DNA of 64,000 bases from Candidatus Latescibacterota bacterium (GTDB lineage Bacteria > Latescibacterota > UBA2968 > UBA8231), in contig CBDAOB010000003.1 of the NCBI GenBank assembly GCA_965197905.1, positions 64,001 through 128,000 on the forward strand. The letters run 5' to 3'. How positions within the stretch are numbered: position 1 is the first letter of the stretch; each line of letters starts with the position of its first letter. Under the pieces are notes generated by a model, which had not been told where the DNA came from, did not search any database, and saw nothing but the letters and a program-made list of their open reading frames with translations. Positions 48,949 through 60,970 of this stretch are shown here, piece by piece. The position numbers and the translations under genes were made by a program.

Positions 48949-49953
48949 ATGGCAGACAAAGTGAGAGTCGCATTGATCGGCGCGGGGGGCATGGGCATGA
49001 ATGTCCACCTCCCTTGTCTGGCGAGTTTGTCCGATGTCGAATTAGTGGCTGTCTGCGACGTGGTAGAGGAGAAGGCGCAAGAGGCTGCACAAGAATTCGG
49101 CATCCCTCTGAGTTTTTCCGACTACAACGAGATGCTCTCCGCAACCGATCCCCAGGTGGTCTATGCCGTATTGAGACCTCAGGACCTCTACGAACCGGCA
49201 GCGGTGGTCCTCCGGCAGGGGCGGCATCTCTTCGTCGAGAAGCCGTTGGCGATGACGGCGAAACAGGCACAGATGTTGGCTTATCTCGCCCACGAGCATT
49301 CCTGCCTTACGGCGGTGGGTTTTCAGAGGCGGCACATCCCGGCGCTCACGGCGCTAAAGCCGCGGGTCGAGGAACAGGGACCGATCCACCAGGCAACCGT
49401 GAGTTTTCTCAAGGGGGGGCAGCACTTTCCCCTCGACAAGCATGCCGGCCTCTGGGGCGCCGTGATTGACAACCTGACGGTGGATGGAGTTCATGCGGTG
49501 GACAACCTGAGATTTCTTTGCGGTGGTGAAGTGGTAAGTGTGGCGGCCCATGTTCGCGCCCGCTACGTGCCGGGGCCAATGCCCAACGAGTTTACCGCTC
49601 TGGTGTCGTTCAGCACGGGTGCGGTCGGTATCCTCAACTCCAGCTACGCTACTCGTATCGGTGTGTTTCGAGCTGAGTTCCACAGCAGGAACATCACCGG
49701 CTACGTGGATGCGAACGGTCAGTCGTTCATCAGGGCTGGTCGAGAAAAGTCGGAGGTGTACGAGTCGAAGGAATTTGGAACTGCAGGAGGAGCACCGGGG
49801 GACAACCATCTGCATTGGGCCGGTTTCTGGCATGAAAACCGGCATTTCATCGATTGCGTGAAAGAGGGACACCAACCATTGACCCACTTTGCCGACGCCG
49901 TCAAGACCATGGAGCTGGTGGAGCAGATCCACAAGGTGGGCGCCAGAAATTGA
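48949..49953 (+). CDS. Gfo/Idh/MocA oxidoreductase
   Basis: IGAGGMG, VEKP, GFQRR, DGVHAVD. Confidence 0.88.
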   Translation: MADKVRVALIGAGGMGMNVHLPCLASLSDVELVAVCDVVEEKAQEAAQEFGIPLSFSDYNEMLSATDPQVVYAVLRPQDLYEPAAVVLRQGRHLFVEKPLAMTAKQAQMLAYLAHEHSCLTAVGFQRRHIPALTALKPRVEEQGPIHQATVSFLKGGQHFPLDKHAGLWGAVIDNLTVDGVHAVDNLRFLCGGEVVSVAAHVRARYVPGPMPNEFTALVSFSTGAVGILNSSYATRIGVFRAEFHSRNITGYVDANGQSFIRAGREKSEVYESKEFGTAGGAPGDNHLHWAGFWHENRHFIDCVKEGHQPLTHFADAVKTMELVEQIHKVGARN

Positions 49954-50325
49954 CGGAACAGCGAACCGTCGGTGTGCGCCGGATCGAACTTGGTGATGTC
50001 AAACACGTCAAGGTCCACTACGACGACCGTCTCTAACGTCGTCCGAGTCGCGTCCTCCCTTTAATCCTCGCACATACCTGGCCGGGCGTCTTCGTTTGCA
50101 GAGTTGCCGTGAGAGCCGCATGGTTCCAACGACTCGATGACTGTGGCTCTCAACGCCGAACATCACCTCAGCGGCTCCTGCCTGACGAATACGACTCGAC
50201 GATGGTCATAATTGTGTGTTCATGCGCCATTAACAGAATCCAGTGTGCTGATCGATTTGGTTAGGTAACTATCTATAGTTAGTAAAAACAATAGTTTATG
50301 TAAAAAGCGCAATAGTACGGAATAT

Positions 50326-50341
50326 CGGCACGTAACTTGCA
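50326..50341 (+). promoter_or_regulatory. Sigma54 (-24/-12) promoter of the cyclase operon
   Basis: CGGCACGTAACTTGCA (GG-N10-GC); AT-rich upstream tract with IHF-like AAACAATAGTTTA at 50286-50298. Confidence 0.75.
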
Positions 50342-50422
50342 ATAGTGAATTATTCCATGTAGTTTGCCAGCCCTGAGCCAGGTTGTGACTGGGGTGGATT
50401 GATTTCTTCGGAGTGAGTGGCC

Positions 50423-53400
50423 ATGAAGTGCCCAAACTGCAGCTTCGAGAGTCCCGCCGAGTTTTTATACTGCGGCAAGTGCGGCACAAGGATCGATCAC
50501 ACGGCGGCGAAGCGGGGCTTTATTCCGCCCAATCATCCAGTACGCAGCACTCGGGACGCCACAGATTCGGTGGCCCAACAATCAGCAGCTGCTGACGCCG
50601 AACGACGGCAGCTCACTGTCATGTTCTGCGATCTGGTCGGCTCGACGCCCCTCGCCGAACGGCTGGATCCGGAAGAGCTGCGCGAAATTCTGCGGCAATA
50701 CCAGGAAACCTGCAGCAAGGTAGTACTCAGGTTCGAAGGGCACATCGCACGCTATCTCGGCGACGGGTTGCTGGTCTACTTCGGGTATCCAAAGGCGCAT
50801 GAAGATGATGCTCATCGAGCAGTGCGGGCCGGACTAGGAATTCTTGCCGCGATGACTCGACTGCGGATGCGCTTCGAGAAAGAGAAAGGTATATGTCTGG
50901 ATCTGCGTTTGGGAATCCACACGGGCCTGGTGGTGGCCGGAGACATGGACGCCGGTGAAGAGCTAGAAACAATGGCTGTTGTCGGCGAAACTCCCAACAT
51001 AGCCGCACGACTGCAGACTCTGGCCGAGCCCAATTCCTTGATCGTGAGCAAAGCTACCAAGCAACTCGTCGAAGGTTTCTTCAATTGCCGAGGTCTGGGG
51101 AAAAAACAGCTAGAAGGGATTTCAGTTCCCGTCGAGGTGTACGAGGTTCTCGACGAAAGTGCCGTGCGGAGCCGGCTGGAGATCACCGGACCCAGGGAGA
51201 TGGCGCCGCTGGTGGGCAGGGATCACACTGTTGGACTGTTGATGGACGGATGGGAAAAGGCGAGGGAAGGGATTGGTCGGGTAATGCTTATCAGTGGGGA
51301 GCCGGGGATTGGGAAGTCTAGACTCGTTCACGTAATAAAGGAGCATGTTTCAGAGGATCCCACTGCGTGGCTGATGGAATGCCGGTGTTCTCCGTACCAC
51401 CAGCGCACGGCATTCTACCCCATGGTGGATCTCCTTGAGCGGATCGTGCTCAAGATCGGGCACGACGAATCAGCCGCGGAGCGCCTGGCGAAGTTAGAGA
51501 AGCTACTCCTACAGCTCGGGCTGCCGCTGGCCGAAGCGGTGCCACTCCTTGCGGAGCTACTGGCTCTGCCATCCAATGGCAGGTATGAGGAACTCAGGCA
51601 GTCTCCAGAGGAACGCCGTCGCCAGACGATGGATGCTCTTACCAATATCCTGCTGGAGATTGCCAAGCGACAACCGCTGCTTTTCGTGGTCGAGGATCTC
51701 CACTGGATCGACCCGACGACCTTGGAGCTGCTCAATCTGGTCGTGGACCAGGGGCCCAGCGCACGCATTTTCGCACTGTTCACCTATCGACCTGAATTCA
51801 TTCCCACGTGGGCGGGATGAGCTTTCGTGACGCAAGTGGCTCTGACCCGATTGACCACTCAGCAGATTCAGGAAGTGGTCGGCTGGGTTGTGGGCGGGAA
51901 GGCATTGCCCGACATGGTGATGGAACAAGTGGTCAGCAAAACAGACGGTGTGCCACTGTTCGTAGAAGAGCTGACCAAGATGGTGCTGGAGTCCAATCTC
52001 CTAAAGGAGACGGACGACCGTTACGAGCTAGTTGGCCCATTGCCGCCCCTGGCGATTCCAACTACCCTGCAGGACTCCCTCATGGCTCGTCTAGATCGGC
52101 TGGGCGCGGCGAAGGAGACGGCGCAGCTGGGTGCTACTTTCGGCCGCGACATTCCGTTCGAGTGGTTGCGGGCCGTAACCACATTGGACGAGGCTGAGTT
52201 GCAGCGCCATGTCAACACCTTGGTAGAGGCGGAACTGCTGTTTGCGCACGGCGAGGCGTCGTAGGTGTCATACGCCTTCAAGCACGCCTTGATACAAGAC
52301 GCGGCGTACCAGTCGCTACTGGTAAGCACCCGCCAGGGCTATCACGTACGCATCGCCAACACACTTGAGACCCGCTTCCCAGAAATGACCAAGTCACAGC
52401 CTGAGCTCATCGCCCACCATTACACCGAAGCGGGTCTGAGCGAGCAGGCCGTGCCGTACTGGCGCTGGGCCGGCGAGCTTGCTACTGCAAAATTCGCCAA
52501 TCGCGAGGCGATCGATCACTTCGGCAAGGGACTGGGACTGATTCGCGACCTGGAAAAAGCCGACAAGCACGCGCGGATAGAGTCGGAGTTGCAGCTCGGC
52601 ATGGGGTATGCCCAGCATCGGGATGGCCGGACTCTCGAAGCAATGGAAGCTTTCGAAAAAGCCGCGAGATGTGCCAGGGATGCGAAATCGACAGACTGTC
52701 TTGCTCGCGCTGCTATCGGCTACGAAGAGGTGCGATGGCGATTCAACCTGGCAACCGATGTGGGCCGAGAACTCCTCGAAGAAGCCGCGCAGCGATTAAG
52801 TGAGGAAGATAGTATCCTGAGGGCGAGCGTTCTGGGAGCGCTGGCTAGAGAGTTGACGCATGCCGATCCCGAGCGTTCGAGCGCGCTGTGGGAGCAAGCG
52901 ATAAGGCTGGCTCGGCGGGCGGGAGATTCCGAAGCGCTATACGTCGTTCTGAGGGGGAGCCTTTTCGCAAATCGGAGACCGGAAACATTCGCCCAGCAGC
53001 TGGCCGTGGTTGAGGAAGCGATGCAGCTCGCGGTACTCCTGGGCGACAAGGAACGCGAGCTGGACATGCATGGGTTTCTGTTATACCAGCATCTCGAAGC
53101 GGGTGATCTGCAGGCAGTCACGCGGAGCCACAAGACTAGCAATGAATTGCGGAAGGTTGTCCACCTGCCGTTTTACGACCACATATGGATGCTAAACGAG
53201 GTGACGCTCGCATACCTTAGCGGCCGTTTCGATGAGGCGGAGCAGTTGGCGCAGGAAGCCCAGGTTCTCGGTGATAAGATGGAGCTGGACGTGGATGGTC
53301 CGTACGGCATGCAGATGTTCAACATTCGGAGACAGCAGGGCCGGCTGCGGGAGGTGGCACCGCTGGTTGAGCTCTTCCTGGAACAATATTCGTTGGATTC

Positions 53401-53947
53401 CACGTGGAGACCGGGACTCGCTCTCATTCACGCCGAACTGGGCAACATCGAGGAGGCGAGAGCCGAGTTCGAGAATCTTGCAGCCAGCGATTTCACCGAC
53501 ATCCCCAGAGACGCCATGTGGACCGGCACAATGTCGTACTTAAGTGAGGTCTGCGTCTTCCTCGGCGACCGTCGACGGGCAGCGCTTCTGTATCAGCTGC
53601 TGTTGCCGTACGTGGGCTATAACGTGATGGTGGGCGCGGGCGTAATGTGTTACGGTGCCGCCTGTCGCTATCTAGGTAATCTTTCAACCGTCCTGCGCCG
53701 CTGGGAAGAAGCGGAAAAGCACTACGTAGAAGCGCTACGACTCAACCTGCAACAAGGTGCGAGACCGTACGTGGCCCACACCCAGTGCGACTACGCCGAA
53801 ATGTTGCGCGCGCGCGGCAGGAACGCCGATCGAGCAAGGGCGGATACCTTGTTAGAGGAGGCGGCTGTGTTGGCGCGGGATCTCGGTATGAACGAGCTGG
53901 AAAGCAAGGTAGAGTCCCGTCGTGCGCCCGCGCCTGCGCGCGATTGA
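50423..53947 (+). pseudogene. Zn-ribbon + class III nucleotide cyclase + AAA/STAND ATPase + TPR-like protein, interrupted by in-frame TGA (51818-51820) and TAG (52262-52264)
   Basis: CPNC..CGKC; MFCDLVGST, YLGDG, GIHTG, GETPNIAARL; GEPGIGKS, VEDLHW; GVPLFVEEL, FKHALIQDAAY; the three ORF-track pieces share one frame. Confidence 0.85.
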
Positions 53948-54005
53948 TGTGTGGGTCAGACGGGCTTGAGATGCCAACGTATTAGCCACCAACAAGGAGT
54001 TGAAT

Positions 54006-54269
54006 ATGCCACTGTTCTTGATCGAGCGAAACTTTGCAGAACAACACTTGCCGACAGAGACAGGCATCCGGGAGGTGACGAAGGCAAATGCAGAGGAAGG
54101 GGTCAAGTGGCTGTTTTCGTTCCTCAGTGCCGACAAGCGGAAGACTTACTGCCTGTACGAAGCCCCGAGCGCCGAGCCAATCCGCAAGGCTGCCGACCGG
54201 CTCGGTTTACCGGCGGATGTGATAGTCGAGGTTAGCGAGATTGGCCCCGAAATGTTCTCGCGGGCGTGA
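54006..54269 (+). CDS. DUF4242 (SCO4226-like) small protein
   Basis: MPLFLIER, KTYCLYEAPS, GLPAD; AAGGAG RBS. Confidence 0.82.
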   Translation: MPLFLIERNFAEQHLPTETGIREVTKANAEEGVKWLFSFLSADKRKTYCLYEAPSAEPIRKAADRLGLPADVIVEVSEIGPEMFSRA

Positions 54270-54275
54270 CCCCAT

Positions 54276-55736
54276 TTGATCATGACCGGTTACATCACAT
54301 TCCTCGGATCTACCGGGCTGTTGGCAGGTGTCCCCTCTGCTGAGTTGCAGGCCATTTCCGACTCGGTGGAAAAGATCGAGCTGCAGCGGGGAGCAACCCT
54401 ATTTCGGGAAGGGGATCCAGGAGATGCCGTTTACCTCATCAAAGAGGGGAAGCTCCGGCTCGAAAGTAACGAGGTGCCTATCGCCAGCCGCACCGTTGGC
54501 GATACGGTTGGCGAACTCGCTTTGGTAGACAACGAAAGGCGGAGCGCCTCCGCCGTCGCCGATACAAAGGTGGCCCTCCTCAAGTGGTCCAAAGAGAACT
54601 TTCACGACACATTGCGGCGAAGCCCGGAAGCGGCGCTGGGTATTTTGCGAGTGTTGTCGGCCAAGTTGCGCGAAGATGTGGCTGTCCAGGTGATCACTGC
54701 GAGGCAGTTGCAGCAGGCAAATGAGCAACTCGAAAGGGAAAACCGCAGCCTGCGGGTGCGCCTATCCCCTACGCCCGAGATGGTTACCGACAGTCCTCGC
54801 ATGGAGCAGGTGATCGAACTGGCACGCAAGGTGGCGGACACCTCAAGCACGGTCTTGCTGCGCGGTGAGAGCGGTACCGGCAAGGAGGTATTGGCGCATC
54901 TGATTCATCGCCACAGCGACTATCGCGACGGTCCGTTTATTCCCGTACACTGCGCCGCACTGCCCCGCGACCTCCTCGAAAGCGAGCTCTTCGGCCACGA
55001 AAAGGGTGCGTTCACCGGCGCTACCGCGCGCCGCGTCGGTCGCTTTGAGTTGGCAGATGGCGGTACGCTTTTTCTAGATGAGATAGGAGAACTGGATCAG
55101 GACATCCAGGTCAAGCTGTTGCGGGTGCTGCAGTCGCAGGAGTTCGAGCGGATTGGGGGCAGCAAGACCATTAGCGTGAATGTACGGCTGATCTCGGCGA
55201 CCAATCGAAACCTGGAAGAGGCGGTTGCCTCGGGCGGGTTTCGGGAGGATCTATATTACCGATTGAACGTAATACCAATCTTGTTGCCGCCTCTCCGCGA
55301 GCGGCGAGAGGATATCCCGCTGTTAGTGGAGCACTTCCTCGCACAGTACAGCAAAGAGCTTGCTCGGCCCGCATGCCGGGCATCCGCCCAGGCGATGGAC
55401 ATGTTAGCTAGCTATTCATGGCCCGGGAACGTGCGCGAGCTGCAGAACCTGGTGGAGCGAATGGTCGTCGTGGTTGACGATGAGATCATCGGACCGTTGC
55501 ACCTGCCGCCGGAGATGCAAGGACTAAGGAATCCGATAACCGATCCGGTCCCTGCAGGGATGGAGCCTCTTGCCGAAGTCGAGGAGAGACATGTCAGAGC
55601 TGCCCTCATTCGATGTGGCTGGAATCAGAGTCGCGCGGCCAGGCTTCTCGAGATCTCCCGCGAGCAGCTCCGCCATCGGATCAGACAGTACCAGATCGAG
55701 GGGCCTTGGAAAGTCGGCGCTCCGGAGCGCAATTGA
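54276..55736 (+). CDS. cNMP-binding domain sigma54-dependent enhancer-binding protein (Fis-type HTH)
   Basis: [76 protein letters not shown]; start could be ATG 54282. Confidence 0.93.
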
Positions 55737-55882
55737 GTATTCATGCATAAATAATTGTGCACATACGCTCAGTTAGAAGTCGACCTCTGGCTATAAAATG
55801 TGTGTCGCGGCCGCTCGCAAAACTCCATAAATCATTGTTAATACGAAAGATTGAAACAGGTTTGTGCGATGAGTGTGCCTGC

Positions 55883-55898
55883 TGGTCCGCTAGTTGCA
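55883..55898 (+). promoter_or_regulatory. Sigma54 (-24/-12) promoter of the flavoprotein operon
   Basis: TGGTCCGCTAGTTGCA (GG-N10-GC); IHF-like site on the minus strand at 55828-55840. Confidence 0.6.
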
Positions 55899-55955
55899 AT
55901 GCATACAGGGTCGAACATGCCCACAAACCTCACCTTAGAAAAAGGAGTTACCGCA

Positions 55956-57158
55956 ATGAGCCAGACGACAGCTGCTGAAATGGTCGGCACGAACGGCCAG
56001 GTACTGTCAGAGGATACCCTTCAACGCTGCCTCGAACGGGCCCCCGGCTATGATGAGGGGAACACATTCTTCCAGGAAGATTTCGATGAACTGAAGGATG
56101 CGGGTTATCTAACCATGGCCGTCCCGAAGGAGTTGGGCGGCAAGGGGATGACGCTAGCCGAGGTAGCTCGGGAACAAACTAGACTAGCATACTTTGCGCC
56201 TGCTACGGCTCTCGCTATCAACATGCATCTCTACTGGACCGGGTTGGTTGCCGACGTGTGGCGGTCCGGCGACCGCTCGCTGGAGTGGTTGCTGACCGAG
56301 GCCGCGGCCGGTGAGGTATTCGCGGCCGGTCACGCCGAAAGCGGCAACGACCTTCCGGTTCTGCTATCCACGACCAATGCCGAACGGGTTGACGGCGGCT
56401 ATCGGTTCACCGGACACAAGTCATTCGGAAGCCTGACCCCCGTGTGGACGCGACTTGGAATTCACGGCATGGATACCAGCGATCCCGAAGCGCCGAAGAT
56501 TGTGCACGCCTTCATGACCCGAGACGCCGAGAACTACACCATCAAAGATACCTGGGATGTTTTGGGCATGCGCGCCACGCGCAGCGACGACACGCTGCTC
56601 GAAGGGGTGTTTGTGCCGGACCAGTATATCGCTCGGGTTGTGCCCCCGGGTGCCGCCGGAATCGATCTGTTTGTCTTGGGCATATTCGCATGGGCGCTGC
56701 TGGGTTTCGGCAGCGTTTACTACGGGCTGGCGCGAAGGGCTTTTGATGTGACCATAGAGGCGATCAAGAAAAAGACCTCGCTCGGGCTTACTCGCTCGAT
56801 GGCCGACCACGCCGGGGTCCAGCACGTCGTCGCCGAGATGGCGATCGAGCTGGAGTCTATCGGTCCTCACCTCGAGAAGATCTGCCAGGATTGGTCCACT
56901 GGGGTCGATCATGGCGCCGAGTGGGGAGCGAAGATCTGCGCCGCGAAGTACCACGCCGTGGAGGGCTCGTGGAAGGTCGTCGACAAATGCATCGAGGTGG
57001 CCGGCGGCTTTGGAATCTTCAAGAAGGCAGGGTTGGAGCGCCTGTTCCGGGATGCGCGATTGGGGCGCATCCATCCCTCGAACTATTTCCTCACTCACGA
57101 GTTCGTAGCGAAGACAGTCCTGGGGATCGACCCGGACGAGGCACCGCGGTGGGGCTAG
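55956..57158 (+). CDS. Acyl-CoA dehydrogenase-fold flavoprotein
   Basis: VPKELGG, FTGHKSFGS, WDVLGMRATRS, LERLFRDAR; ATG after AAAGGAG. Confidence 0.88.
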   Translation: MSQTTAAEMVGTNGQVLSEDTLQRCLERAPGYDEGNTFFQEDFDELKDAGYLTMAVPKELGGKGMTLAEVAREQTRLAYFAPATALAINMHLYWTGLVADVWRSGDRSLEWLLTEAAAGEVFAAGHAESGNDLPVLLSTTNAERVDGGYRFTGHKSFGSLTPVWTRLGIHGMDTSDPEAPKIVHAFMTRDAENYTIKDTWDVLGMRATRSDDTLLEGVFVPDQYIARVVPPGAAGIDLFVLGIFAWALLGFGSVYYGLARRAFDVTIEAIKKKTSLGLTRSMADHAGVQHVVAEMAIELESIGPHLEKICQDWSTGVDHGAEWGAKICAAKYHAVEGSWKVVDKCIEVAGGFGIFKKAGLERLFRDARLGRIHPSNYFLTHEFVAKTVLGIDPDEAPRWG

Positions 57159-57227
57159 TAACGGAGGGCGAAAGGGCGTGGCGAGCATTATCAAGAGGGC
57201 CAGAACGCCAATTAAGGTGGTGCTACA

Positions 57228-57405
57228 ATGACTCAAGCTGATACCAGCAACAATCAAATGTCCGTGCTTCGAAGTCCGTATGAAAAACTCGCAGGTTGTT
57301 ATCATCTGGTGCGCATTACCGACAAGATCCGCTTAGTTTCGATGCTTCAAGATCGAGGACTGGGATGAGGGTCGTTTACTAGACTTGAAAGGCATCGAGC
57401 GATGA
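57228..57405 (+). pseudogene. Hollowed DUF5069-like gene remnant
   Basis: LRSPYEKLAGCYHLVRITDKIRL, then in another frame KIEDWDEGRLLD..., ending in an ATGA overlap with the next gene. Confidence 0.55.
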
Positions 57406-58241
57406 ATTTGCCAACAATGCAGCTTACCAACATCAATGGCATCAACTTGGAAATCTCGGATCGTGGATCGGGAGATCCCGTCGTGTTTATTCACGGCGCC
57501 AGTGGGGACGAGTGTTTCGCGGTCCTTGAGGAACCCGCCCTCGCCGACTCTTATCGTCTGATACATTATCATCGACGCGGCTGGGGCCAGAGCGAATGTC
57601 TGGAGATGCCGGTCAGTAACGAACTACAGTCAGCGGACTGCCAGGCGCTTCTTCGACATCTGGGCATCGGACGGGCGCACTTCGTCGGTCAGTCCGGTGG
57701 CGGCATCGTGGCCTTGCAGGTCGCGCTGGACGCTCCTGAGATGGTGCATTCTATTGCCCTGCTCGAACCGGCGCTGCCTTCTGTTCTTTTCAACGCCGCG
57801 GAGTTCGGTGCCGTAGCGGAAAAAGCCGTGGCGGCGTACGAGTCAGGTAACAAGGCTGACGCGATCGACACCTTTGGCCAGGAGGTAGCCGGGGTTGATT
57901 ACCGCAAAGTGTTTGACCGGACCTTGCCGCCCGGCAACTTCGAACGTTGGGTGGCCGACGCGGATACTCTATTTCAGGCTGATTTCCCAGCTTACCCTGC
58001 ATGGACCTTTGGCGGTGACGAGGCCGCTCGTATTTCGCAGCCGACACTCAACATGATGGGGGCCAATACCAACTCTTATTTCCGGGAAATTTACGAAACT
58101 GTGTGTTCATGGGTACCTCACGCGGAGAACTTCGTTCTGCCCAACGCGACCCATGCCATGCTGCAGACGAATCCGAAAGCTGCGGCTGAGCGTTTAGCAA
58201 GCTTCTTCTCGAACAATCCGTTGCAAGAGGGGATGGCATGA
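57402..58241 (+). CDS. Alpha/beta hydrolase
   Basis: FIHG, RRGWG, GQSGG nucleophile elbow, THAM. Confidence 0.88.
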   Translation: MNLPTMQLTNINGINLEISDRGSGDPVVFIHGASGDECFAVLEEPALADSYRLIHYHRRGWGQSECLEMPVSNELQSADCQALLRHLGIGRAHFVGQSGGGIVALQVALDAPEMVHSIALLEPALPSVLFNAAEFGAVAEKAVAAYESGNKADAIDTFGQEVAGVDYRKVFDRTLPPGNFERWVADADTLFQADFPAYPAWTFGGDEAARISQPTLNMMGANTNSYFREIYETVCSWVPHAENFVLPNATHAMLQTNPKAAAERLASFFSNNPLQEGMA

Positions 58242-58293
58242 AGGCAGAGTGCGTGGACGAAACAGGAACTACGCCAAAAGCTGCGGGGGCCTA

Positions 58294-58454
58294 GTGCCCA
58301 GTATCGAAAATATGCCTGTATTAATTCGCCGATTCATCCCGACCTGCTGCGTTACGCTCACTCGGCGTATTCACCAATACGCCTGGATCGCGCGCCTTGC
58401 AGGCCGGGCGACTCGGGGCCTTCATTTCACAAGCCTACTTCCGATACAGGGCAC
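58294..58454. repeat. MITE-like element, copy B (161 bp)
   Basis: CTA-GTGCCCAGTATCG...CGATACAGGGCAC-TAG; near-identical to 36369-36529. Confidence 0.85.
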
Positions 58455-59251
58455 TAGCTACTCCTCAGGGCTTCCACCTGACGGCGCCCGATCTCTTTGA
58501 TCAGGACATCGGGCTGCGCGTCCAGCTTCGAATAGGCGGGGTTTCCTCGCGGCATCTTCTTGAAAGGACTGTTCCGTGCGGCGTTGTAAGAGCAGATCAA
58601 CGCCCAGCGGCGCTGATCGCTGTGATTGTGATCGGAACAGTGCATCAGATTGCAGTCAAAGAACAGAGCTGAGCCGCGGTCCATCTCGCAGTTAACCAGT
58701 TCCATATGCTCCAGCGCTGCGTCCACCCGCTCCGCATCGGCGCTCATCTGGCCGGCGACGTAGTGGTGCTCAACGCGGCCTATCTTGTGTGACCCCCGAA
58801 TCGCCTTGATGCAGCCGTTTCGCTCCGTCGCCGGGTCTACGGCGACCAGGCAGCTTGCCAGCAGTGGGAAAAGACAGGCGTGCTCGACGTACCAGTAGCC
58901 GTAGTCCTGGTGCCACTCCCATGCTCCGCCTACGCGCGGATCCTTGAACATCATCTTGTGATTCCAGTGGTACGCCTCACCTTCGAGAATCTGCTCGATG
59001 GGTCCCAACAGGCGGGGACAACGCACGAAGGCAGAGTAGATGTCATCGTCGAGCACGGTGCGCGCCGTCAACCGGGTGATGCCGCCGTCGCCGTCCTCGC
59101 GCACGTATGACTCGTCGGTCAAGCTTTGATCGGTCTCGGCGATCTGCTGTAGAAGATCCATCTCTTCACCGTCGAACAGTCCTTCCACTAGCAAAAAGCC
59201 ATCGGCGCGAAACTGCGCTAATTGGGCGTCGGTCAGGTTGGAGGAATCCAC
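58454..59251 (-). CDS. Phytanoyl-CoA dioxygenase family protein (EctD-like motif)
   Basis: KMMFKDPRVGGAWEWHQDYGYW, GSH, LMHCS; start GTG 59251 or in-frame ATG 59362. Confidence 0.87.
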   Translation of the reverse strand: MDSSNLTDAQLAQFRADGFLLVEGLFDGEEMDLLQQIAETDQSLTDESYVREDGDGGITRLTARTVLDDDIYSAFVRCPRLLGPIEQILEGEAYHWNHKMMFKDPRVGGAWEWHQDYGYWYVEHACLFPLLASCLVAVDPATERNGCIKAIRGSHKIGRVEHHYVAGQMSADAERVDAALEHMELVNCEMDRGSALFFDCNLMHCSDHNHSDQRRWALICSYNAARNSPFKKMPRGNPAYSKLDAQPDVLIKEIGRRQVEALRSS

Positions 59252-59836: not shown

Positions 59837-60970
59837 ATGCGTGTAACGAGCGTCAAAACGACCCCTCTTTCCATCCCGCTCAAAGAAACTTACTACTACA
59901 GCCAGGGGGCGGTGGCGGGAGGCAATTCGATTCTGATCGAGGTTGAAACCGACGAGGGCATCGTCGGGATCGGGGAAGCGTGCGGCGATCGATCGGCGTC
60001 AGCCGTGCTGGGGGTCGTTCATGCCGCGGCTAGAATCCTGGAGGGAACGAGCCCTTTCGAGATAGAACGGTTCCTCTATCGTTTCTATCGCGAAGCGAAA
60101 TGGGATGACATGCGCCGATTTGCCAATCAGGCGCTGGCGGGCGTCGAGATGGCGCTTTGGGATATCGTCGGAAAGGCGGCGGGACTTCCACTGCACGCGA
60201 TTCTGGGTGGGGCGCTCTACGATCGGATCAATCACTTCGGCTTCTTGCAGGGCGACGAACCGACCAAACTCGCGGACGATGCGTCCATGTGGCAGGAACG
60301 CGGATTCGACGTGCTCTATTTGAAGGTGGGGCGTGGGCGCCAGCGGGATCTCGCCTGTGTCGAGGCGATTAGAACCCGGGTGGGACCCGAGATGAAACTT
60401 CGCGTTGATGCCAACATGGCGTGGTCTGTGGGTGAGGCTATTCAGGAACTCAGGGCTCTGGCGAGCTACGATATCGACTTCGCCGAACAACCGGTACCCT
60501 AGTCCGATTTGGATGGACTCGTCCGGGTTCGCGACGCCGTACCCATGCCGATTGCCGTCGACCAGGGTTGTTTTACCGAGCACGAGGCCCTGGAGGTAGT
60601 ACGGAAGAAGGCAGCTGACGTGATTGTGGCAGGGTTGCATGAGACCGGCGGAATCTCAGGCCTGCGCAAACTCTCGGCTGTTGCCGGAGCAGCCGCATTA
60701 CCCATCTGCCGGCACGGGGTCATGGGAGAGACCGGGGTCACCACCCTTGCTTCGCTGCAGGTCCTCGCCTCCATTCCAAACCAGACCCGTGGCCACCAGG
60801 TCATGCATCAGCTCTTCGAAGCCGATATCGTAGCCGAGGGTGTCATAGAATTCGATGGTGGCGATATTGTTGTGCCCGATCGACCGGGATTGGGCATCGA
60901 ATTAGATTGCGATCGGGTAGATGAGTACGCCAGGCGCTATGAGCAAAGCGGGCCCTACTGGCCCTGTTAG
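59837..60970 (+). pseudogene. Mandelate racemase/MLE family protein with in-frame TAG at 60500-60502
   Basis: EMALWD, VDAN, EQPVP*SDLDGL...VDQG...PGLG, all in one frame; paralogue of 42681-43811. Confidence 0.85.

What the first reader, a model, noticed from the sequence alone, without database searches (positions are those of the whole stretch)
50200..58241. Candidate self-contained cyclic-nucleotide to sigma54 signalling circuit (STAND cyclase + DUF4242 + cNMP-bEBP + target operon)
Seen: a tight operon encodes a Zn-ribbon/class III cyclase/AAA-STAND/TPR-like protein, a DUF4242 mini-protein, and an enhancer-binding protein (bEBP) whose only sensor is a cNMP-binding domain and whose GAFTGA motif is intact. 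A sigma54 promoter precedes this operon (50326-50341). A second one precedes the downstream flavoprotein, DUF5069-like remnant and hydrolase genes (55883-55898). Known: bEBPs activate -24/-12 promoters, and STAND ATPases are ligand-gated switches. Inference: the cyclase makes a cNMP that activates the bEBP, which then drives both its own operon (positive feedback) and the catabolic output genes. This would be a CRP-independent second-messenger module that I do not recognise as characterised.
Basis: partly seen in the sequence, partly recalled or inferred. Interest (0 to 1): 0.8.

Follow-up and report, generated by a model that had tools for sequence, protein, structure and literature searches.

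The report
Decaying cyclic-nucleotide-to-sigma54 signalling cassette
A bacterium carries an inserted gene block in which a rare transcription activator with a cyclic-nucleotide pocket appears to switch on a flavoenzyme from a sigma-54 promoter; the cyclase gene meant to feed it is broken, so this is the remnant of an untested circuit, not a working one.

Summary
A separate assembly confirms both. A second sample keeps the TGA, lacks the TAG, and deletes 30 bp from the activator's nucleotide pocket. The 8.4-kb block is absent at this site in a closed sister genome, so it is an accessory cassette in decay.

Best-supported link: cNMP-bEBP to downstream sigma54 promoter. All 3 complete orthologues are followed by a strong site. 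Among 80 loci of the flavoprotein, only the one with this activator has such a site. About 50 of those 80 loci carry a STAND+DUF4242 pair wired to transcription by an HTH or by a kinase plus ECF sigma. Here the STAND lacks an HTH and its cyclase motifs are intact, which fits a cyclase-cNMP-bEBP relay.

The full synteny was found in no other genome. Feedback at the first promoter, the nucleotide's identity and a catabolic role are not shown. The host has 8 other cyclase domains and Crp-type HTHs. I found no paper on a cNMP-gated bEBP; the scan noted similar modules on other DNA. New variant; interest 0.5.

The parts
49954..58348 (.). Accessory cassette (about 8.4 kb), absent at this site in the closed same-genus genome G002, where the flanking GFO gene and the PhyH-side sequence lie 29 bp apart
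50286..50298 (+). IHF-like site (1 mismatch to a recalled consensus) about 40 bp upstream of P1; weak evidence in AT-rich DNA
50326..50341 (+). P1, sigma54 -24/-12 site CGGCACG-N4-TTGCA; score 17.6, 0 of 300 shuffles
50423..53947 (+). Broken gene: zinc ribbon - class III cyclase - STAND ATPase - TPR. Catalytic D70, D114, N192, R196 kept; base-selecting positions are R110/A185 where CyaB has K/T. An intact 1175-aa orthologue exists (P0014, 76%)
51818..51820 (+). In-frame TGA stop, shared by X1, X3 and X4; P0014 has Arg here. Leaves a 465-aa product with the cyclase and most of the NTPase domain but no TPR sensor
52262..52264 (+). In-frame TAG stop; present in X1, read as CAG in X3 and X4
54006..54269 (+). 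DUF4242 / SCO4226-like protein, 87 aa, intact; lacks the nickel ligands His76 and Glu74 of SCO4226
54282..55736 (+). cNMP-binding domain - coiled coil - sigma54 AAA+ (GAFTGA intact) - Fis-type HTH; 484 aa from ATG (TTG at 54276 gives 486 aa)
54488..54517 (+). 30 bp missing in X3 and X4 (residues 72-81, including the pocket's Gly79-Glu80). Record P0001 is frameshifted at the same place
55744..55761 (.). Imperfect palindrome (14 of 18) just after the bEBP stop; candidate upstream activating sequence, unproven
55828..55840 (-). IHF-like site (1 mismatch to a recalled consensus) upstream of P2; weak
55883..55898 (+). P2, sigma54 -24/-12 site TGGTCCG-N4-TTGCA; score 12.2, 2 of 300 shuffles; a counterpart exists in L017
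55956..57158 (+). Acyl-CoA-dehydrogenase-fold flavoprotein, 400 aa, intact; nearest solved structures include KijD3-type (3M9V), DnmZ and nitrososynthase oxygenases; below every NCBIfam cut-off
57228..57368 (+). 46-codon remnant with the first 25 of 133 profile positions of DUF5069
57402..58241 (+). Alpha/beta hydrolase, 279 aa, G-x-S-x-G kept; a relative was found in only 1 of 80 flavoprotein loci
58291..58460 (.). Genome-wide repeat of about 170 bp at the right edge of the cassette

Best explanation
An accessory cassette whose ancestral wiring was: a STAND-TPR sensor, paired with DUF4242, switches on its fused class III cyclase; the cyclic nucleotide binds the N-terminal pocket of the bEBP and relieves inhibition of the AAA+ domain through the coiled coil; the bEBP activates sigma54 RNA polymerase at P2 (flavoprotein, DUF5069, hydrolase) and perhaps at P1. 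The cassette is now decaying: a shared nonsense codon cut off the sensor half of the cyclase, and later lesions differ between populations. In the window's strain the bEBP-P2-flavoprotein arm looks intact and could respond only to nucleotide from other cyclases or from the truncated product. Step odds: cyclase gene broken 0.9 (shown in DNA); bEBP drives P2 0.8 (comparative inference); bEBP binds a 3',5'-cNMP 0.75 (motif inference); the local cyclase was its source 0.55 (inference); feedback at P1 0.4 (inference only); role of DUF4242 as a sensing partner unshown.
For: (a) Stops confirmed and dated by reads; an intact orthologue exists; internal stops are rare in this genome's paralogues, 1 of 65 hits. 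(b) The block is absent from the sister genome. (c) The three complete orthologous bEBPs form one AAA clade (98 SH-like, with one non-cNMP protein inside). Each is followed by an AT-rich spacer and a sigma54 site scoring 12.2, 14.7 and 16.6. (d) Of 80 flavoprotein loci, only L017, which has the bEBP, has a strong site (14.7; next best 9.0). (e) 50 of 80 flavoprotein loci have a STAND+DUF4242 pair: winged HTH 32, kinase plus cyclase-like domain 14 (12 beside an ECF sigma), cyclase-like domain only 2, cyclase plus LuxR 1, none detected 1. Only 1 of 17 cyclase-like domains showed all the catalytic motifs. The window's STAND has no DNA-binding domain but has the catalytic motifs, and the bEBP is the only transducer in the cassette. 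(f) Pocket residues G79, E80 and R89 are invariant. Sister cNMP-SpoIIE genes lie directly beside a STAND cyclase (G020) or near a GAF cyclase (G094). (g) No sigma70-type site in 49900-58500, against 3.2 expected.
Against: The cyclase-DUF4242-bEBP order was seen in no second genome. G069's bEBP drives an STAS gene and sits beside cNMP-SpoIIE; G093's follows a short-chain dehydrogenase on a 7.9-kb contig. No DUF4242 from a contig as long as P0014's (846,342 bp) was among the best 120 hits. The genome holds 9 cyclase domains and 23 cNMP domains. The base-selecting residues are non-canonical, and the R/A pair occurs in 2 of 100 relatives. No convincing shared enhancer between P1 and P2: the shared 9-mer has p about 0.2, and the 7-mers shared with G069 have p about 0.03, post hoc over four word lengths, although the two HTHs are nearly identical. 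The 80 loci are the best of 346, and many are related Acidobacteria, so they are not independent.
Confidence: 0.55

Rival explanations
1. Chimeric neighbours. The bEBP-P2-flavoprotein unit reads the cell's general cNMP pool. The STAND cyclase-DUF4242 pair is a separate module under P1, driven by another bEBP, and it decayed because it was never needed.
For: The bEBP-promoter unit exists without an adjacent cyclase in 2 of 2 other complete cases. The genome has 8 other cyclase domains and 20 other bEBP hits, 14 with GAFTGA. No convincing shared enhancer.
Against: STAND+DUF4242 accompanies this same flavoprotein in 51 of 80 loci, and L071 holds the same subfamilies (TPR 39-40%, DUF4242 69%, flavoprotein 74%), so the pair is no chance neighbour of the target. 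The bEBP ATG lies 12 bp after the DUF4242 stop. The pocket is lost in a population that already carries the TGA.
Confidence: 0.25
2. The circuit still runs. The 465-aa product before the TGA is a sensor-less, constitutive cyclase that locks the loop on, and the pocket deletions in other populations were selected to switch it off.
For: The whole cyclase domain with D70, D114, N192 and R196 lies before the stop. The TGA is shared by both samples. Two different lesions hit the same spot of the pocket.
Against: No expression or activity data. The product ends in a cut NTPase domain. Relaxed selection explains the same lesions, and the DUF5069 gene is also a remnant.
Confidence: 0.1
3. The stops are recoded (selenocysteine or read-through), so the cyclase is full length.
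For: The genome has a tRNA-Sec.
Against: Two different stop codons; the orthologue has Arg and Gln there; the TAG is CAG in another sample; 1 of 65 paralogue hits has an internal stop.
Confidence: 0.03
4. The cNMP-fold domain senses something other than a 3',5'-cyclic purine nucleotide, or the cassette is a Pycsar-like defence system using cCMP or cUMP.
For: Non-canonical base-selecting residues; PycC and PycTIR profiles match weakly.
Against: The nearest structures are CyaB (E 2e-30) and PKG/PKA/Crp domains. The PADLOC hits cover only the generic domains. No TIR or membrane effector is in the cassette.
Confidence: 0.07

Closest known systems
Rhodospirillum centenum gcyB-gcyC-cgrA cGMP feed-forward loop (PMC4681086, PMC10187061; passages read)
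   Same: Cyclase genes in one operon with a cNMP-binding transcription activator that turns on its own operon and further targets.
   Different: There the receptor is a Crp protein with a CAP-type box. Here it is an AAA+ bEBP with -24/-12 promoters, the cyclase is a STAND-TPR fusion and is broken, and feedback is unproven.
One-component bacterial enhancer-binding proteins (NorR, DmpR, NifA, FhlA, RtcR; architecture from PMC7175178 passages)
   Same: N-terminal sensor, AAA+ domain with GAFTGA, Fis-type HTH, adjacent sigma54 promoter.
   Different: The sensor is a cNMP-binding domain plus coiled coil, shared with cNMP-SpoIIE phosphatases of the same class (62% over 168 aa in G069). It scores below the cut-off of all 25 listed NCBIfam bEBP families.
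Mycobacterial cyclase-ATPase-LuxR proteins Rv0386, Rv1358, Rv2488c (PMC4452763; passages read)
   Same: Class III cyclase fused to a STAND ATPase; frequently pseudogenised.
   Different: They carry their own LuxR HTH. The window's protein has none and has a different TPR family. The label SWACOS for cyclase-linked STANDs is recalled; I did not test it by a tree.
SCO4226 / DUF4242 (PMC4186839; parts 2-3 of 5 read; PDB 4OI3)
   Same: PF14026 match above cut-off.
   Different: His76 and Glu74 align to Val, and the protein has a single His, so nickel binding is not supported.
Pycsar (PycC + cNMP-binding effector)
   Same: Cyclase gene near a cNMP-domain protein.
   Different: No TIR or membrane effector; the receptor is a transcription activator; only weak generic PycC hits.

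Membership tests
Bacterial enhancer-binding protein | Sigma54_activat domain with Walker A/B, GAFTGA, R finger and sensor II | tested here: met
   PF00158 243 bits; motifs read; fold matches FleQ/NtrC1
Bacterial enhancer-binding protein | C-terminal Fis-type HTH | tested here: met
   PF02954 E 4e-12
Bacterial enhancer-binding protein | Host has sigma54 and a nearby -24/-12 promoter | tested here: met
Bacterial enhancer-binding protein | Identifiable upstream activating sequence | tested here: inconclusive
   Palindromes follow the stop in all three orthologues but do not agree between G000 and G069
Bacterial enhancer-binding protein | ATP-dependent activation of sigma54 RNA polymerase | not testable with these tools
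   needs an assay
Cyclic-nucleotide-binding domain (ligand-binding type) | Phosphate-binding cassette G-E-x-A-L...R-S/T-A | tested here: met
   G79, E80, R89, S90, A91 invariant; align to PKG domains; G79-E80 deleted in X3/X4
Cyclic-nucleotide-binding domain (ligand-binding type) | Measured cNMP binding | not testable with these tools
   needs an assay
Class III nucleotide cyclase | Two metal-binding Asp and the transition-state Asn/Arg | tested here: met
   D70, D114, N192, R196 align to CyaB; kept in 83 of 100 relatives
Class III adenylyl cyclase | Adenine-selecting Lys and Asp/Thr | tested here: not met
   R110 and A185; product unknown
STAND ATPase switch | P-loop NTPase, helical/winged domains and repeat sensor in one polypeptide | tested here: not met
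   All parts are encoded, but two stops split them; met in orthologue P0014
TOMM kinase/cyclase fusion (TIGR03903) | Score above cut-off | tested here: not met
   P0014 scores 499 against a cut-off of 706; no kinase domain
SCO4226-like (PF14026) | Profile match above cut-off | tested here: met
   67 bits against 28.5
SCO4226-like nickel binder | Nickel ligands His76 and Glu74 | tested here: not met
Pycsar | PycC plus TIR or membrane effector | tested here: not met
Crp-type cNMP feed-forward operon (CgrA-like) | Receptor has a Crp HTH | tested here: not met
   No PF13545 match at this locus; two over cut-off elsewhere in the genome
Two-component flavin monooxygenase versus acyl-CoA dehydrogenase | Assignment to a named family | tested here: inconclusive
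   All NCBIfam scores far below cut-off; top structures include N-oxygenases

The most novel reading that the evidence does not exclude
A cNMP-binding domain fused to an active sigma54 AAA+ activator is an undescribed, Crp-independent class of cyclic-nucleotide transcription effector, apparently formed several times by domain swapping (in this class from cNMP-SpoIIE phosphatases). In this cassette it was the relay by which an NLR-like STAND sensor with a DUF4242 partner controlled its own operon and a widespread flavoenzyme through a locally made, possibly non-adenine cyclic nucleotide. It would be one interchangeable wiring of a sensor-target pair found across many phyla.
Probability: 0.35. 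Interest if true: 0.75.

Novelty: new variant of a known kind. Interest (0 to 1): 0.5.

Why it matters
Bacterial cAMP/cGMP is read at the level of transcription mainly by Crp-family proteins (PMC10187061, listing and passages). A bEBP gated by a cNMP pocket would join second-messenger and sigma54 signalling directly and give an energy-dependent, tightly off switch. Three natural versions (G000, G069, G093) with predicted promoters make this a simple test. The comparison also ties the uncharacterised STAND+DUF4242 pair to one flavoenzyme in about 50 loci, which is a lead on what these sensors detect. The locus itself matters less, because it is broken and unique among the genomes searched.

Tried and rejected
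Assembly error as the cause of the stops: rejected; X1 may be the source sample, but X3/X4 share the TGA.
Recoding: rejected.
Full-length orthologue among 30 close relatives: none; the G005 hit beginning at residue 30 is a receiver-domain bEBP.
JGI metagenome scan with P0145: 4 weak cNMP-only hits, no orthologue.
DUF4242 in the genome holding L017: 0 matches, but the control rang nowhere and the genome is fragmented.
A 1385-aa cyclase 35 kb from G069's bEBP: no STAND or DUF4242 match around it.
Shared enhancer for P1 and P2: not significant; p values printed there for empty sets are meaningless.
Rfam: no match. ESM Atlas: generic bEBP clusters below 0.9 only.
RNA: no RNA holder listed.
AlphaFold model (6 sequences, pTM 0.45): shows the domains and the linker helix, not their packing.
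The DNA around P0014, P0164, P0179 and P0182 could not be fetched.
The organism's phylum was not named by any tool.
Literature: searches showed no paper on a cNMP-gated bEBP or on DUF4242 with STANDs (listings only, unless stated). Subscription journals are not searched, and one search was swamped by eukaryotic papers. Passages of PMC3162934, PMC12316311, PMC7159879, PMC2447327 (only 20,587 characters held) and bioRxiv 10.64898/2026.01.04.697583 gave nothing on it. The 11 supplements of PMC12316311 had no 'cNMP_binding' or 'PF00027'. The supplements of PMC3162934 and of the preprint were not seen and could list this architecture or this STAND clade.
Full report
OBSERVATION. The genes are there in the order given, and both -24/-12 sites are at the stated coordinates. 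Genome-wide, 16 of 42 sites with at most one mismatch to the recalled consensus are intergenic, against 11.5% expected, so this host uses canonical sigma54 promoters. rpoN is intact. A matrix trained on 33 other sites gives P1 17.6 (0 of 300 single-letter shuffles) and P2 12.2 (2 of 300; reached by 49 of 2678 real and 8 of 2678 shuffled upstream regions). P1 is strong and P2 moderate. No sigma70-type site was found in 49900-58500, against 3.2 expected.

The cyclase frame has a TGA at 51818 and a TAG at 52262. A contig of run X1 spans 49900-55000 without a difference. Runs X3 and X4, one sample of another study, keep the TGA, read CAG at 52262, and lack 30 bp from 54488. That removes bEBP residues 72-81, including the Gly-Glu of the phosphate-binding cassette. 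Record P0001 is frameshifted at the same place (inferred from the protein, DNA not seen). An intact 1175-aa orthologue, P0014 (76%), has Arg and Gln at the two stops. Only 1 of 65 paralogue hits in five families has an internal stop, so this is local decay, not recoding. The DUF5069 gene is a 46-codon remnant. In the closed same-genus genome G002 the flanks are 29 bp apart, so the 8.4-kb block is accessory.

THE ACTIVATOR. All catalytic motifs and the pocket residues are kept. The fusion is rare: 4 of the best 150 representatives cover both domains. In 168 phylum genomes the N-terminal module matched 6. These are complete bEBPs in G000, G069 (P0145, 64%) and G093 (locus L017), one cut by a contig end in G097, and cNMP-SpoIIE phosphatases in G069, G020 and G094. 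The cNMP domains of these bEBPs and phosphatases, with P0179 and P0002, form one clade (95/96). The AAA domains of G000, G069 and G093 group together, with P0164, P0179 and P0182 outside (FastTree). This suggests domain swapping and more than one origin; I ran no formal clade test.

THE ACTIVATOR'S TARGET. All three complete orthologues are followed by an AT-rich spacer and a sigma54 site (12.2, 16.6, 14.7). In L017 the gene behind it is the same flavoprotein (77%); in G069 it is an STAS protein. Among the best 80 of 346 flavoprotein loci, only L017 has a strong site upstream; the next best scores 9.0. This is the best evidence that the bEBP drives P2.

THE SENSOR AND THE TARGET. The flavoprotein is a regular neighbour of STAND+DUF4242: 51 of 80 loci by tblastn and 50 of 80 by ORF pairing; many are related Acidobacteria. 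In those pairs the link to transcription is a winged HTH (32), a kinase with a cyclase-like domain (14, 12 of them beside an ECF sigma factor), cyclase plus LuxR (1), cyclase-like domain only (2) or none detected (1). Only 1 of 17 cyclase-like domains showed all the catalytic motifs by a simple pattern test. The window's STAND has no HTH but keeps D70, D114, N192 and R196, as do 83 of 100 relatives. A cNMP relay is thus the natural way for it to reach transcription, and the bEBP is the only candidate in the cassette. This is inference. The base-selecting residues (R110, A185) are non-canonical, so the nucleotide is unknown. The DUF4242 lacks SCO4226's nickel ligands. In two relatives it is fused in front of SpoIIE, which fits an input role.

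AGAINST. The three-gene order was found nowhere else. DUF4242 matched 3 of 168 genomes, the TPR part 2 of 168 (the second over residues 5-190 only), and the flavoprotein 2 of 168; all counts include G000. Neither other complete bEBP has a cyclase beside it. One indirect hint points the other way: DUF4242 P0402 and cNMP-bEBP P0179 both list a longest contig of 19,870 bp. Similar length matches pair DUF4242s with STANDs of this TPR type (50,004, 30,829 and 13,261 bp). The DNA could not be fetched. The host has 9 cyclase domains, 23 cNMP domains, 2 Crp HTHs over cut-off and 20 other bEBP hits, so neither nucleotide nor P1 activation must be local. No shared enhancer stands out. 'Catabolic' is unproven: the nearest structures include biosynthetic N-oxygenases.

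COMPARISON. It works like the R. centenum gcyB-gcyC-cgrA loop (passages), with a bEBP and sigma54 in place of Crp. It is a member of the one-component bEBPs by every sequence test. It is not Pycsar, not TIGR03903, and in this strain not an intact STAND. Ten searches found no paper on a cNMP-gated bEBP. Earlier notes of this scan describe STAND+DUF4242 pairs, a Crp-wired version and a Flavobacterium cyclase-cNMP-bEBP module. They are unchecked AI notes and gave leads only.

VERDICT. Observation partly confirmed; interpretation partly supported. A decaying accessory cassette with a plausible ancestral cNMP-to-sigma54 relay (0.55). The lasting result is the cNMP-bEBP with its downstream promoter. 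New variant of a known kind; interest 0.5.

Noticed in passing
window 59837-60970 (+): Mandelate-racemase/enolase-family gene split by an in-frame TAG at 60500-60502; the G002 orthologue (92%) has Trp there.
   Followed up: partly
window 58291-58460: Repeat of about 170 bp with some 8 near-full copies in this genome and copies in G002; no Rfam match. It marks the cassette's right edge.
   Followed up: partly
L116 13885-18302 (G069): cNMP-SpoIIE, an inverted partial bEBP remnant, the cNMP-bEBP, a hairpin-T terminator, a sigma54 site and an STAS gene: a possible cNMP-controlled partner-switching module.
   Followed up: partly
L119 3324-8142 (G020): cNMP-SpoIIE gene directly upstream of a zinc-ribbon cyclase STAND, with a second cyclase-STAND nearby.
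   Followed up: partly
L013 667-1734; L014 1393-2547: DUF4242 fused in front of a SpoIIE-type phosphatase in two genomes of the host's family.
   Followed up: no
L017 2634-2850: The orthologous bEBP has an FhlA-like HTH and a perfect 11-bp inverted repeat just after its stop, a clear enhancer candidate; HTH type judged from recall.
   Followed up: partly
L026, L028, L037, L038, L041, L049, L063, L073, L083, L085, L087, L095: ECF sigma + kinase-pseudocyclase-STAND + DUF4242 converging on the flavoprotein gene in Gemmatimonadota, Proteobacteria and Acidobacteria.
   Followed up: partly
G000 whole genome: tRNA-Sec present; no tRNA found on contig C3 (1.2 Mb).
   Followed up: no
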